Shown: positions 1 through 44,100 of the stretch, in pieces | Numbering within the stretch: the stretch's first letter is position 1 | Layout of the letters: each line of letters begins with the position of its first letter | Source of the DNA: Pocillopora damicornis | Taxonomy: Eukaryota | Direction of reading: 5' to 3' | Assembly (NCBI RefSeq): GCF_003704095.1 | Contig: NW_020847264.1 | Location: 1 to 64,000 of the forward strand | DNA: 64,000 bases | Position numbers and translations under genes: made by a program | Notes under the pieces: generated by a model | What the model was told of the DNA's origin: nothing | What the model saw: the letters and a program-made list of their open reading frames with translations, nothing else | The model's database searches: none

Positions 1-382
1 CAACCAGGCCTGTAGGGCTGAGTTGACATCATCTCATATACAACAAGCACAAGTGGAATAATTGTTTTATTAAAATAAAACCAAAGTAAAGATAAATAAA
101 TACATTTTTTAGCTCTGTTCTAATTTTGCGCTGATGCATACACTTACCATATTTGTGGAGTGTGGTATAATGGCTCATAACCCATGATGGCTAGGCCCAT
201 GAAACTCTTGAATTGCATTATCCATTGATCTAGTTTTTAATAGTGATGGTTATCAAGTACATCTGACCCACTAGGTCATAGGGTCTTATCCCTCATTGTA
301 AGCAGTTCCTAAGTGTCAACATTTTTGCAGGAGAGTGAATACAGAAACAGTAGTATCTATTTAAAATCATATCATAACTCAC

Positions 383-38249: not shown

Positions 38250-39386
38250 ATGAATCTTCCGTTTAGTTTGGTTGCTGTGTCCTTGTTTACATCTGGCTAT
38301 GTGGCCATCTTTTCAGTAGCACTGACCGCAAACATTTTCATTATTTTCCTTGTTCTTAAAAAACCTGTGATGAGAACAACCATCACCTACTTCTTCGCTA
38401 ACATGGCTGCCGCTAATCTTCTTGTAGCTGTCTTCGTTATACTGCAGGCTCTGCGGTATCTATTCGCCGCAGACGCTTGGTTTCCAGGAATGCTCGGTCA
38501 AGTTTCTTGCAGACTTTTACATTATACGGAAGCCATCTCCACTACAGCTTCCATTCTGAGCCTGATAGCCATCTCGCTGGACCAGGTGAATGTTATCTTG
38601 TTCCCCATAAGGAGAGCTGTGATGATAAGATATACCAAATTTATTTCGCTCGTTATTTGGCTCCTGTCTATGGTTTTCACCTCTCCTTATCTTGCCATGT
38701 TCGGTGTCAAGACGGTATCTGGTCAGCAGCATCGATGCGTTTACTTGGTCCTCAACCATGTCGTTATGGAACTTCATGTTTCATTAATCTTTGTTTTCTT
38801 ATACGGGTTTCCTCTCGTTTTTATGGCAACTTTGTACGCTCTTATGGGACGAAAACTGTGGTTTCGAACCATTCCAAGAAATGTTCATAGTATCCATCGA
38901 CAAGCTGCTGAGAAAACCAAACGCCGCACCATCCGCTTGCTAATCGCACTCATAGCAACATATGCATTATGCTGGCTTCCTGCTCACGTGCTTGGTATGT
39001 GCACGGTTTTCAAACCAAATGTGATAAGAAACCTGGCTCCCCATTGGTCCTTACTTATTGCATTTATTGCGCATGCGAACTGCGCTTTCAATCCTTGCAT
39101 TCAAATTGTTTTAGACAGGAGATTCAGAGCAGAGTTCTTCAAATTACGGAATTGTGGGAGAAATATAAAGCAGTGGTGCATTTGTAAGAAAGGAAAAGTT
39201 GAGAATAACAGGGAAGCTAAAACGGACGTGCCAAGATTCAAAACTTTGGAGAGTGTTATAGAGAGAATAGCAAAAGGTCGAGGAAGACTGTACGATTTGA
39301 GCCCTACAAAAAACGATACACAGCTCCGTCCATTCTCTCCCGTACAGTTATCTTACTACAGCGAGGTAGTGGAAACAGAAAACTAA
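38250..39386 (+). CDS. Class A (rhodopsin-like) 7TM GPCR, neuropeptide-receptor-like, atypical motifs
   Basis: 378-aa intronless ORF with seven hydrophobic segments, TM3 and ECL2 cysteines, CWLP in TM6, NP in TM7 and FRAEF helix 8. Confidence 0.9.
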   Translation: MNLPFSLVAVSLFTSGYVAIFSVALTANIFIIFLVLKKPVMRTTITYFFANMAAANLLVAVFVILQALRYLFAADAWFPGMLGQVSCRLLHYTEAISTTASILSLIAISLDQVNVILFPIRRAVMIRYTKFISLVIWLLSMVFTSPYLAMFGVKTVSGQQHRCVYLVLNHVVMELHVSLIFVFLYGFPLVFMATLYALMGRKLWFRTIPRNVHSIHRQAAEKTKRRTIRLLIALIATYALCWLPAHVLGMCTVFKPNVIRNLAPHWSLLIAFIAHANCAFNPCIQIVLDRRFRAEFFKLRNCGRNIKQWCICKKGKVENNREAKTDVPRFKTLESVIERIAKGRGRLYDLSPTKNDTQLRPFSPVQLSYYSEVVETEN

Positions 39387-40573
39387 GCTCGATGACTTAA
39401 AACTGAAGCAGCGATGCTAAACAGAGGCATTTTGGATGATAAACGCGATCCATACTGATTAACGTAGGAGCCCATTACCCAGATAGTGGGTTAGTAGTAC
39501 TGCCAAAGTATATTCAATCGCTTTTGATCAAACTGATAAGATGATTTCTTGTTTTGTTGGATTAAATGTATTTGGTTATCGTATTACAATGGAAAGAAAC
39601 AGCAAAAATCTAACATTGCTTAAAGGCAGTCTAGTGTTAGAACTAAGGGAACTTCTGTCAGAGAGGGTGAAATTCGTTAAAACACGAACGTAACTTTCTT
39701 GCCTTTTTTGTGCACAAAGAATGCAACTAAATAATAAAAAGGAGTCGGGTTCTGGCAGCCGGATAACCAGGAAGAGGTGAACAAGTCAAGCTGGCTAAGT
39801 CTCCGTTGCTAGTGTGTGCTGAAGCGACGAGCAGCTAAGCCGCGAGAGGATTGGGACAGAGGATAAACATATCTACACCCGCGTCTCTGCCGGTCATGAC
39901 TTGCACGCACAACTGCGTCAGATGTACAGGGCATATCAGGTTTCGCTCGGGACAGACCTCATTAGTTTGTAGTGCATTTTCGTCCTTCTTGTACATAACT
40001 TCACACATGATCAGCACGCGCTCTATAAAAAAATAGGGAAAGAAAGTGTGTTTTTTTTTAATATTATGTATGGCCTGAGCTTATTGTGAGCTAGATCATC
40101 ATTTTGCCTTGATCAGTTAGGGTGATTCACTCTTTTCTTTTGGTTCTGAGTTAGACAAGAACTTTTTATATATGTAAAGCAGATATTGACCAATTCTTAG
40201 AGCAGAATATATGAACAATAACCAGAAACACCAGCGGTAGCAAATATTATTGTGATGACATTGTAAAGAATTAAATGCATGTATACAAGATAATACTACT
40301 CCAAAAATTAGCGAGGGGCTTACGTTAAACCCCTCAACTCACCGAGGTGATTAACATATAACTTCTCCCCATAATATCCATACATTATCTAGCAAACGGG
40401 TAATGAGAATACTCAAACTCATCAGGTAGTAGTTAAATTGATCTAACACAAAAATTTCTTAAATTATACTTATACAAGATAATGTGTAGCAGCCAGGAGG
40501 GAGAATTAAAGAGCTTACCTGGCTCCGCGCTCCGGGAACTGCGATGCAACTTAGTCCGGCTATGGGCTAAGGA

Positions 40574-40577
40574 TGAA

Positions 40578-40622
<45 letters not shown>

Positions 40623-40819
40623 TATAGCAGGTAATTTAGTGTTAACAACTGGGTTGAAAACGTAAATTAGCCACCGTAAAGAGTAAAAAAGCTGACGTTT
40701 CGAGCGTTAGCCCTTCGTCTATCGCTCTGACGAAGGGCTAACGCTCGAAACGTCAGCTTTTTTACTCTTTACGGTGGCTAATTTACGTTTTCAACCCAGT
40801 TGTTAACACTAAATTACCT
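40574..40819. mobile_element. Penelope-like non-autonomous insertion: 50-bp tail plus 96-bp perfect inverted arms, 15-bp TSD
   Basis: Arms 40624-40719 and 40729-40824; GCTATGGGCTAAGGA at 40559-40573 and 40820-40834; carries a hammerhead motif. Confidence 0.8.
40724..40757 (+). ncRNA. Minimal type-I hammerhead ribozyme motif
   Basis: GCT-CTGACGA-A-GGGC-TAAC-GCTC-GAAAC-GTC-AGC: core CUGAnGA and GAAA, stem II GGGC/GCUC, palindromic ACGU stem III, GUC cleavage triplet, stem I GCU/AGC. Confidence 0.78.
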
Positions 40820-41143
40820 GCTATGGGCTAAGGACTTTCATAAAATATCAAAGTTTCACATTTCTGGCTCTCCTGTTATAATTAAGCTTCTCTTTCTTTG
40901 TTCTATTCTTCTATATTTACTTTCTCTTCTTACTTCTTTGTTACTTTTCGCTTGTTTCTGTTAGTATTAATCAATCTTTCGTTGTTGTTGTTGTTGTTTT
41001 GTCGTGGGAGGGGTAGAGGGTAAAGTTTTTAAAATCACATGACAGTAAACCCTTGTAGACCCGACCGTTTGAACTGCTCATGCGCTGTAGTTGTCAACTC
41101 ACGTACACTCCAGTCGGCGAATGAACAACATGAAATCAGGGAA

Positions 41144-44100
41144 ATGGCGATGGCAGTATTCACCTCGCGGCCTAATTCTCATCCTTTTGAGGAAAGGAGA
41201 GTTCCTTTAACGGAGCCGGTAAAGATAGGACGTTCAGTAGCGAAGAGTAGACCAGCCACAAACAATTGTATCTTCGACTGCAAGGTCTTGTCGCGGAACC
41301 ATGCTATCCTATGGTATGAAGACGGGAAGGTCAGTGAAATAAATGGATTATCATAACTGTGATGTTTACATCGAGACATTATAAATGTTGTCTGCAAAGC
41401 TCTTTCAGCTAACTAGAGAGTAATTTAAATCTTTTAAATTGCACAATACGATTTAATCTTGAAATCCTGAGTAGTGATGTAAGTGGTTGTTCAATTTAAA
41501 GAGTAACGTTTTCAACCAATTCAATGACATTGGTGTTTCGCCACTGAGAGATGATACTAAAACTTCTCTGTCGAGAGAAAGATTCTTCCTTTAAAAGTAA
41601 CATATAAAAGTTAATCTCAAGGGTCCTTGTTACATTTATTATTGCGTGAATTTTTCCGGAAACACAACTTGTGATTATTTTCGACTTGTCACATGCTACT
41701 TACACGTTAGCTGTATTGATCTTTGATCGAGCACCTTTTTTGTGTGGTTTTCTTTTTCTTGTTGGCAAACCACCTTCGATTTAAAAGCACAAGTGGAGAT
41801 AATCGTCTAAACGCTTCGTCAGATAAACTATCCCTTCCAAAAGATTATGTGTTTTGGAATTTAATTAATTTAAAGGTTATATGTTGAGAATTTGTTTCTT
41901 TTGTAATGCAGTCTTATTTGAAATTCAAAAATTTATTTGATCGTAGTATGTTCTGTGGCATGCTTTAATCGTGTGATTTCAGTTTCATTGCCGAACTGTA
42001 AACGAAATTGTTCTTCTCTGCTAAAAAGTTTGCCTTATTTGGTTCACATCCTCCTACTCTTTCCTGTCTAAGTTGGAGGTGTCAACAAACTTGTCTGAAC
42101 CGCAGCGGAAATGCTTTCATTCAATTTGAGTAAATACCATTTTGTTTGTTCAAAAAATTGCTAATTTTCAAATGTATATGCAGGCTGAAACACATCATTT
42201 TGTTTGGCAAACATTTTAATGAAAGTTACCCGGGGTATGTTCTTGCAAAGCAACTAAAACTTTCAAATGAAAAAAGTTATTCTGATATAAGAATTTCATT
42301 GTTTACATTTCTTTAAAGTTTCAACCAGTTGGAGGTACACTCTACATGTAAATTTACACAACTGCTCATCAAATAAACTGCATAGTAGAGGGGAATAACA
42401 GTCTTAGTTAATCGTGTTTCCTGTTTCCTTTGATTTATTGCCCATGAATAGAATGAACTTGACCTGTAATGAAATGTAGCAATGCAAAAGTGCTGTGCCT
42501 CATTTACAGCTGATCAGGCATATCATGATATCAGTCAAAATTATCAAAACATTTGTTTAAAAAGCATGAAGTGGCCATTGATACCTTTATGTTGCAAACC
42601 AGCTTATCCTTGTATTTAATTCAGTATTCATAGTATTAATTGGTTGTCTAAAAGCCAAGAGAATGTTGTATTTATTTAATATAGTCAGTAAATACAGTAA
42701 AGAGATGATGTTACGTGGTTACTTAAATGACAACAGCAAGGTACAGTCATACCAGCAAGTTCTAATTTTTCAAGGAAAAATTGTCCAATGTATGGTGGAG
42801 TCCAAAATAATATCCCAGTGAAGAAAGTCTGGGAAAAATAATAGAGTAGAATTTCCATCAGAATTTTTTGTCACAAAAAAAAGTACCCTTGGCAAGTTTC
42901 CTTGTGTAGTCACTTATACTAACAAATTGTTCTCAGCAAGTTTTGCTTGAGCAGGTTTCTATATTGATAATTTGACATGTGTGATTTTAAGCAAGAGGTC
43001 TTTTGGAAAAAAACTGTGGTAAAGATATTTTCGCATAAGGACTGCTTAAGAATACTTAACAAGAGAAAAACAAAGAAAATAATTTGGAAGAGTGAATTCT
43101 GCTCTCATTAACTATATTTACAATGTTACATGTTGATACATTCATTATAGGTATCTTTAATATGTGTTCATTATAATTCTGCATCCTTTTCACAGCTTCT
43201 GTCAGTGGTTTTTTTTCTAAAAAGGACTGACACAACCAGATGATATGTTTTGAATCTCCAAGCAACTCTGCCCATTGTTACATTATTCTGTAGATACATT
43301 TGTCTTTCTGAATACATGAACTAATTGAAAGTCACTCAGCACAATGATTACCCATCTGAGACAGAAATTTAAACCTTGTTGTGAATAACTTATGTGTTTA
43401 TTAATTGCAGATTTTAGCATCATTGAGTAAATTTTATGAATCTCAGACTATGTTATTCATTGATATTAGCTGATATTTGAAATATAATATAAATGATTTT
43501 GTTGTTTCAGTTCTTCTTGCAAGACACAAAAAGTAGCAATGGAACTTTTGTGAACAATGTGCGGCTTAGCAAAGGGTCAGAGGAGAGTGAGCCAAAGGAG
43601 TTAAAGTCTGGGGATATTGTTCAGTTTGGAGTGGATGTAGTGGAAAACTCTAAAAAAGGTTAGAGATTTTGCTTAACTTTGTAAGATTCCATGTTTTACT
43701 TTTACAGAAGGAGACTTAAGGCCAGTTATCAAGATGAAGCCTAACCAAAACCATGGTCTTACACAATCAGTGGGCCTCAGGCTTCCTATCTAAAAGGATT
43801 GATTTAATTAAATAAATGTCCTTTCACTGTAAGATTTCTGCCGTCTTTACACTGTTCACAAACATAAATGTTCAGATAAAAGGTCTAGCTGAATTGAGGA
43901 TTGATTGAATGCAGTTTTGGTAACAATAGCTAAGCTTTTTTCTAAATAATCAGACCTTAGTGTTCCAAAACCTGGATTTAAGGGTTTAAGGTTTAGGCTC
44001 ATAGTTGTGTGTTATTAGACAAGATATTTAACTATGATAGCCCTTCTCTCCATTCAGGAGTATAAGGAGGTGATAAAACTGACAAAATGTTCATATTTGG

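What the first reader, a model, noticed from the sequence alone, without database searches (positions are those of the whole stretch)
40559..40834. Young Penelope-type palindromic insertion with an intact minimal hammerhead ribozyme just upstream of SLMAP
Seen: perfect 96-bp inverted arms, a 50-bp unpaired tail, a perfect 15-bp TSD, and a full core GCU-CUGACGA..GAAAC-GUC-AGC (40724-40757; predicted cut after 40754) on the + arm. The - arm is truncated inside the CUGA core. Known: minimal hammerheads with a tiny palindromic stem III are characteristic of Penelope-like element pLTRs and are thought to act as dimers. Inference: a recent, possibly polymorphic insertion about 310 bp before the SLMAP ATG that could cleave, or fold into dsRNA in, upstream transcripts.
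Basis: partly seen in the sequence, partly recalled or inferred. Interest (0 to 1): 0.72.

Follow-up and report, generated by a model that had tools for sequence, protein, structure and literature searches.

The report
Ordinary Penelope hairpin; siblings record cuts
This 276-base hairpin is one of hundreds of near-identical stumps left by a Penelope-type jumping gene, a known pattern, and its ribozyme is predicted to be locked in the hairpin and harmless to the neighbouring gene, but about 2% of sibling copies begin exactly at the ribozyme's predicted cut site, which likely records cutting in the living animal.

Summary
Both arms are 100% identical to the terminus that follows a GIY-YIG endonuclease ORF elsewhere in this genome; RT lies upstream in other copies. 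So it is a 5'-truncated insertion of an EN+ Penelope-like element (Neptune/Nematis type). It is not special: 437 exact 30-mer matches; 47 of 79 sampled loci are such hairpins. Inverted pLTR plus one-sided tail is published PLE anatomy. The SLMAP idea is weak: ribozyme stems have probability ~0 inside the hairpin, transcription through it was not shown, and no empty site was seen. The family is more informative. All 47 hairpins pair one long and one short arm, arms share variants, and 5' ends pile up 31 nt below a TATA box. Twelve of 578 arms start exactly at the predicted cut, against 1, 2, 1 at neighbouring bases. This points to twin priming on one, mostly uncut RNA and to occasional in-vivo cleavage. 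The scan noted the same pattern earlier in other genomes (unreviewed notes); my paper searches did not find it.

The parts
40559..40573 (+). Left copy of 15-bp target-site duplication
   Evidence: family TSDs are 13-16 bp in 38 of 47 inverted loci, none >=9 bp in 141 shifted controls
40574..40719 (-). Long arm: PLE terminus, positions +10..+155 of the parent (+1 = inferred transcript start)
   Evidence: 147 of 147 identical to the terminus behind the GIY-YIG ORF of L010
40574..40623 (-). 50-bp one-sided tail = stretch between the two inferred RT start sites (about +100 and +155)
   Evidence: 3' ends fall in two modes, +98..108 and +151..159; tail = interval between RT starts in PMC11167929
40691..40719 (-). 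Truncated hammerhead on the long arm (no CU of CUGA, no 5' strand of stem I)
40720..40728 (+). 9-nt loop: 5' end of the short arm, at the inferred RNA start, joined head-to-head to the long arm
   Evidence: the same junction recurs in L002, L004, L009, L026
40721..40824 (+). Short arm: PLE terminus +2..+105; last 5 nt shared with the TSD
   Evidence: 104 of 104 identical to parent
40724..40757 (+). Minimal type I hammerhead: 3-bp stem I, CUGACGA, extra A, 4-bp stem II, GAAAC-GUC with palindromic ACGU and no loop III; predicted cut 40754/40755
   Evidence: features as in PMC4209133; folding
40820..40834 (+). Right copy of 15-bp TSD
41144..41329 (+). Neighbour, not part of the element: first coding exon of the FHA-domain (SLMAP-like) gene, spliced at 41329
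   Evidence: RNA contigs of 2 of 2 RNA runs laid end their match at 41329 with the same loose letters

Best explanation
The 276-bp hairpin is a short, 5'-truncated insertion of an endonuclease-bearing Penelope-like retrotransposon, likely made when both strands of a staggered 15-bp cut primed reverse transcription of one uncut element RNA at two start sites and the two cDNAs were joined head to head near the RNA's 5' end. Shown: identity of both arms to the terminus behind RT/GIY-YIG ORF pieces; the long+short pairing in 47 of 47 hairpins; 13-16-bp TSDs; shared variants between arms; 5' ends clustered at +1..+14. Inferred: the transcript start at about +1 (TATA at -31), twin priming, and use of a single RNA. 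At this locus the ribozyme is a passenger: any read-through RNA is predicted to fold the 96-bp hairpin and bury it. In the active element the ribozyme likely cuts a small minority of RNAs, which leaves copies beginning exactly at +36.
For: Parent: all 12 EN loci fetched carry the terminus, 90-100% identical; RVT_1 E 3e-7, above cut-off; GIY-YIG E 3e-4, just below. Copy number: 437 exact 30-mer matches, control 0. Sample of 79 loci from the first 100 matches: 47 inverted, 32 solo; 47 of 47 long+short; solos end at either mode (15 short, 16 long, 1 other), so +100 is an independent start. Either arm can be the more complete one (long arm starts <=+3 in 26 of 47, short arm in 21 of 47). Arms agree at the +47 variant in 38 of 39 pairs (25 C/C, 13 T/T) and share rarer changes in 10 loci. 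91 of 126 arms start at -2..+14 and 115 of 126 upstream of +35, so templates were mostly uncut, as found in vitro for PAc (PMC11167929). An extra C precedes +1 in 22 of 36 copies ending there, while 11 of 11 read-through copies have T: an end-of-template mark. Cut-site class: 12 arms in 11 loci start at +36 vs 1 (+35), 2 (+37), 1 (+38; two more flagged by the script keep GAAACGTC and were reclassified by eye); binomial P 4e-5 by arm, 1e-4 by locus, 5e-3 for solos; a second subfamily without the AGCT palindrome gives 2 of 9 vs 0 of 6 and 0 of 7.
Against: No intact autonomous copy was shown; RT and EN were seen in broken frames or across assembly gaps. Arm concordance could also come from gene conversion between arms or from one source copy dominating each period. 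The TSS is inferred from copy ends only. The +36 peak is small (12 of 578), only three neighbouring positions were tested genome-wide, the site is a 4-bp palindrome that favours head-to-head joins in 7 of the 12 arms, and only 6 of 11 such loci show a TSD. PMC11167929 found no RNA-seq reads ending at the PAc cut site. PMC3846280 explains head-to-head junctions by self-priming on an antisense template instead.
Confidence: 0.8

Rival explanations
1. Same element, but the inverted arm is made by fold-back: the first cDNA (or an antisense RNA) snaps back at its end and is copied, rather than two primings.
For: Perfect arm identity and shared variants; short loops and 0-3-nt overlaps at many junctions; self-priming proposed in PMC3846280 (passages).
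Against: A cDNA primed at +100 cannot template the tail, yet here and in many loci the short arm has the fuller 5' end; a fold-back copy has no reason to stop at +98..108, the same place where 15 of 32 solo copies end; clean 13-16-bp TSDs on both sides.
Confidence: 0.13
2. A self-propagating palindromic mini-element or retrozyme: the hairpin is copied as a unit.
For: The exact junction of this locus recurs in L002, L004, L009, L026.
Against: Junctions and both 3' ends differ from locus to locus; the recurring junction occurs in both orientations relative to the tail; no head-to-tail tandem repeats of HHR units as in retrozymes (PMC7229834 passages); copies include sequence 5' of the cut site.
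Confidence: 0.04
3. The insertion regulates SLMAP: it cleaves or makes dsRNA in upstream transcripts, or the + arm acts as an internal promoter firing into the gene.
For: Position 310 bp before the ATG; + arm points at the gene and starts at the inferred TSS; D. virilis Penelope has an internal promoter (PMC2377424 passages); one low-depth (3.7) polyA contig covers 40822-40903 and runs 69 unseen letters further left; no empty site seen.
Against: Hammerhead stems have probability 0.0 in the hairpin and stem I only 0.1-0.3 even without the left arm; the TATA box is absent from the insert; main RNA contigs begin at 41124 and 41144 (contigs cannot show a start); hundreds of equivalent copies make one landing near a gene unremarkable; minimal HHRs are inactive as monomers (PMC4209133).
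Confidence: 0.08
4. The +36 class is not ribozyme cutting but RT pausing or microhomology at the AGCT palindrome.
For: 7 of 12 arms are in inverted junctions; small numbers; positions beyond +35..+38 not tested genome-wide.
Against: Five solo copies start there (two with clean 12-13-bp TSDs, L135, L136); the AGCC subfamily adds two solos; the predicted local hairpins would stop RT at +38/+39, not +36; most such ends are preceded by extra T or by stutter repeats.
Confidence: 0.3

Closest known systems
EN+ Penelope-like elements with inverted 5' pLTR and one-sided tail (Adineta Pen2a, PMC3846280; D. virilis Penelope, PMC2377424; overview PMC8557442 Fig. 2)
   Same: Head-to-head pLTR pair, tail on one end only, TSD, TATA/Inr-like motif in the pLTR, RT followed by GIY-YIG.
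   Different: Insert has no ORF at all (260 bp); tail 50 bp rather than 30-40; TSD 13-16 bp rather than 8-10 in A. vaga.
PAc (Poseidon of Anolis), PMC11167929
   Same: Two internal RT start sites bounding the tail; both target strands cut and extended; uncut RNA is the main template.
   Different: Different clade (linker Zn-finger here). The paper reports no strand difference in start-site use and no reads ending at the HHR cut; here each hairpin uses one site per strand (47 of 47) and about 2% of arms begin at the cut.
Minimal hammerheads of metazoan PLEs (PMC4209133)
   Same: Type I, no loop III, palindromic 15.2-16.2, extra base between 9 and 10.1, G10.1-C11.1 pair.
   Different: Stem I only 3 bp and stem II 4 bp (S. 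mansoni examples: 4-5 and 7-8 bp); the paper notes opposite-strand pairs 100-700 bp apart, here they are 32 bp apart.
Non-LTR retrozymes of corals (PMC7229834; bioRxiv 10.64898/2026.07.22.740005)
   Same: Non-coding, HHR-bearing, PLE-related, abundant in corals.
   Different: Retrozymes are head-to-tail tandem units with canonical HHRs and circular RNAs; this is a head-to-head stump with a minimal HHR.
L1 twin priming (recalled, no call)
   Same: Both target strands prime on one RNA and give an inversion.
   Different: L1 pieces cover adjacent, non-overlapping parts of the RNA; here both arms copy the same 96 nt from two fixed start sites.

Membership tests
EN+ Penelope-like element | RT followed by C-terminal GIY-YIG endonuclease upstream of this terminus | tested here: met
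   L037: RVT_1 E 3e-7 then EN frame then terminus 97.9% identical; L010/L033 EN then terminus 100% identical. GIY-YIG Pfam score 21.4 is below the 22.6 cut-off; VIY..YIG and R,H,E,N seen by eye.
EN+ Penelope-like element | Single intact ORF between two pLTRs | tested here: inconclusive
   L034 has a pLTR on both sides of ORF pieces, but all 12 EN loci fetched were truncated, broken or gapped; no search for an intact copy was made.
EN+ Penelope-like element | Inverted 5'-truncated pLTR and one-sided tail | tested here: met
   described in PMC8557442, PMC3846280
EN+ Penelope-like element | Target-site duplication | tested here: met
   15 bp here; 13-16 bp in 38 of 47
EN+ Penelope-like element | CCHH motif with two Cys inside GIY-YIG | tested here: met
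   VIYCITCTYCNKLYIG ... REH ... ARH translation; motif as defined in PMC8557442
Neptune or Nematis clade | CX2-5CxxC linker between RT and EN | tested here: met
   CARSRCKTC; definition in PMC8557442
Neptune or Nematis clade | RT phylogeny placing it in one of the two clades | not tested
   No reference sequences of the clades were fetched.
Minimal PLE hammerhead | Conserved core, extra base 9/10.1, G10.1-C11.1, palindromic 15.2-16.2 without loop III | tested here: met
   against PMC4209133; no Rfam hammerhead hit
Minimal PLE hammerhead | Self-cleavage as a dimer | not testable with these tools
   Indirect only: excess of copies starting at the cut site
Non-LTR retrozyme | Head-to-tail tandem units each with an HHR | tested here: not met
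   Head-to-head pair here; 47 inverted and 32 solo among 79 loci
Non-LTR retrozyme | Circular RNA intermediate | not testable with these tools
   Only contigs were available

The most novel reading that the evidence does not exclude
The copies of this family are a fossil record of the Penelope reaction: every hairpin is made by one RNP priming both target strands from two different start sites on one RNA, and the roughly 2% of arms that begin exactly at the hammerhead cut (both arms in two loci) are genomic evidence that the minimal PLE hammerhead cleaves in vivo, which the papers read here list as lacking.
Probability: 0.55. Interest if true: 0.65.

Novelty: new member of a known kind. Interest (0 to 1): 0.4.

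Why it matters
The single locus matters little. The family matters because how PLEs make inverted ends and whether their minimal hammerheads ever cut in cells are stated as open (PMC8557442, PMC4209133, PMC11167929). Hundreds of young, short copies give precise predictions: RNA start near +1, RT starts near +100 and +155, one per strand, 13-16-bp stagger, 5'-OH ends at +36. These can be tested by RACE, cyclic-phosphate sequencing or the PAc-type in-vitro assay.

Tried and rejected
Rfam scan: no hammerhead family, only generic hairpin hits below gathering. Idea that the insertion lies in a 5'-UTR intron of SLMAP: RNA contigs in 2 of 2 runs showed no upstream spliced loose end (one ended in adapter at 41124), so not supported, but contigs cannot show starts. 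Empty site: not among the 15 joints listed, 172 not shown; X13 gave no contig and X5, X6 none over most of the right flank, which proves nothing. The contigs entering the element carry only 17-26 element letters, under the tool's 31-letter bridging rule; X10 is near-identical and may be the source sample. A-to-I editing or small RNAs could not be tested (contigs only). Self-propagating palindrome and retrozyme readings rejected. 12 of 24 matches were point mutants or local rearrangements and were dropped before the +36 count, likewise 8 of 9, 6 of 8 and 16 of 17 in the controls. Lunse et al. (PMC5785218) is not held; I saw only its citation in PMC6765202. Supplements were not read; those of PMC4209133 and PMC7229834 list cnidarian min-HHR families and may contain this one.

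Full report
Observation. The fold is far beyond chance (z -24.8, 0 of 200 shuffles). The last five bases of the right arm are also the first five of the TSD. The insert lies between a single-exon 7-TM-like ORF ending at 39386 (GPCR label by my reading of the translation) and an FHA-domain exon starting at 41144 (the name SLMAP is recalled). Run labels point to a coral host.

Family. The long arm finds 1974 candidates in the 234-Mb genome; the 40 scored are 97-100% identical and 31 have a partner piece on the opposite strand. An exact 30-mer occurs 437 times, control 0. Two of the first 30 loci extend upstream into the end of an ORF with CX4CxxC, VIY..CxxC..YIG and the R, H, E, N residues. That protein has 154 matches among 150 scored candidates; all 12 loci fetched carry the terminus, 90-100% identical to ours, and several show RT motifs upstream (RVT_1 E 3e-7). 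Both of our arms are 100% identical to the terminus in L010. By the definitions in PMC8557442 (passages) this is an EN+ PLE of Neptune or Nematis type. No intact copy was shown.

Anatomy across copies. I took the first 100 of the 437 matches in contig order, 79 loci. Numbering from +1 = the A lying 31 nt below TATAAA in the parent, the predicted cut is before +36. 47 loci are head-to-head pairs and 32 are solo. All 47 pairs join one arm ending at +151..159 with one ending at +70..108 (43 at +98..108); solos end at either mode (16 and 15, 1 other). TSDs of 13-16 bp flank 38 of 47 pairs; none of 141 shifted controls reaches 9 bp. 91 of 126 arms start at -2..+14 and 115 of 126 upstream of +35. 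Copies ending at +1 carry an extra C in 22 of 36 cases where read-through copies have T in 11 of 11, and several junctions show stutter repeats of the terminal bases. The two arms agree at a subfamily variant in 38 of 39 pairs (the exception is misaligned by a deletion) and share rarer changes in 10 loci.

Mechanism. PMC11167929 (parts 1-2 of 4 read) shows that a PLE protein cuts and extends both target strands, starts RT at two internal sites that bound the tail, and uses mainly uncut RNA. The genomic pattern fits and adds one point: each hairpin uses one site per strand. Plain fold-back cannot give our locus, where the tail-less arm has the fuller 5' end; across the sample either arm can be fuller (26 and 21 of 47). 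I therefore favour twin priming on one RNA that starts near +1. The TSS, the twin priming and the single RNA are inferred. PMC3846280 (passages) describes the same anatomy in a rotifer and prefers self-priming on an antisense template; gene conversion could also explain arm identity.

Cut-site class. Of 24 genome-wide matches in which the base before the cut is not C, 12 keep the upstream core and are mutants or local rearrangements; 12 arms in 11 loci really begin at +36, out of 578 arms. The same test gives 1 at +35, 2 at +37 and 1 at +38 (two +38 rows flagged by the script retain GAAACGTC and were reclassified by eye). Binomial P is 4e-5 by arm, 1e-4 by locus and 5e-3 for solos only. In two loci both arms start at the cut; two solos have clean TSDs; 5 of 11 loci show no TSD. 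The site is an AGCT palindrome, which could favour inverted joins; a second subfamily with AGCC gives 2 of 9 at +36 against 0 of 6 and 0 of 7, both solos, consistent but too few alone. PMC4209133 (parts 1-2 of 4) says in-vivo evidence was absent and monomers did not cleave; PMC11167929 found no reads ending at the cut. Paper searches listed no report of genomic copies ending at the cut or of twin priming in PLEs; most subscription papers, Lunse et al. and supplements were not seen.

This locus and SLMAP. In the 276-nt RNA all hammerhead stem pairs have probability 0.0; without the left arm stem II forms but stem I reaches only 0.1-0.3, and a non-catalytic hairpin is the minimum. RNA contigs of the gene begin at 41124 and 41144; one polyA contig of depth 3.7 covers 40822-40903 and runs 69 unseen letters left. 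Transcription through the insert is thus neither shown nor excluded. DNA contigs of X1, X6 and X9 (three studies) run from a flank 17-26 letters into the element, X5 was uninformative, and no empty-site joint was listed (172 joints hidden). X10 runs 26 unseen letters past the stretch, to the same end point as X1, and may be the source. The filled allele looks common; polymorphism is not excluded.

Other papers seen: PMC6765202, PMC2377424 and PMC7229834 as passages; bioRxiv 10.64898/2026.07.22.740005 part 1 of 5. Earlier scan notes report the same twin-primed hairpins and cut-site starts in other genomes. I had noted the long+short rule and the +36 class before that look-up and searched 'twin priming'; the lead to PMC3846280 came from those notes and the shared-variant count was run after them. 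They are unreviewed and are not counted as support.

Verdict. A real, correctly described, but ordinary product of PLE integration: new member of a known kind. Interest 0.4, carried by the family-level evidence on mechanism rather than by the locus.

Noticed in passing
window 28285-28450: A second, older head-to-head insertion of a related PLE family (85-96% identity in three pieces) with tail on the - strand and a decayed hammerhead on the + arm.
   Followed up: partly
window 38250-39386 (+): Single-exon ORF of about 380 aa that reads like a rhodopsin-class GPCR, 1.2 kb upstream of the insertion; label by eye, not searched.
   Followed up: no
window about 40378-40430: Short piece of another very high-copy repeat (contig depth >1e5); PLE copies L021 and L120 are inserted in similar sequence.
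   Followed up: no
L147 (G000:C2956, near 5483): Read-through copy in which 11 AT-rich bases replace C17 exactly at the predicted cut; could be RT jumping across a cleaved RNA.
   Followed up: no
copies ending at +1 in the 79-locus sample: Extra C before +1 in 22 of 36 copies (a G added to the cDNA), the opposite of the extra G expected from a cap (expectation recalled); copies ending at +36 mostly have extra T instead.
   Followed up: partly
L191/L192 (G000:C3599:87982-88085): Both arms of one hairpin share the same C-to-T change at the cleavage base.
   Followed up: no
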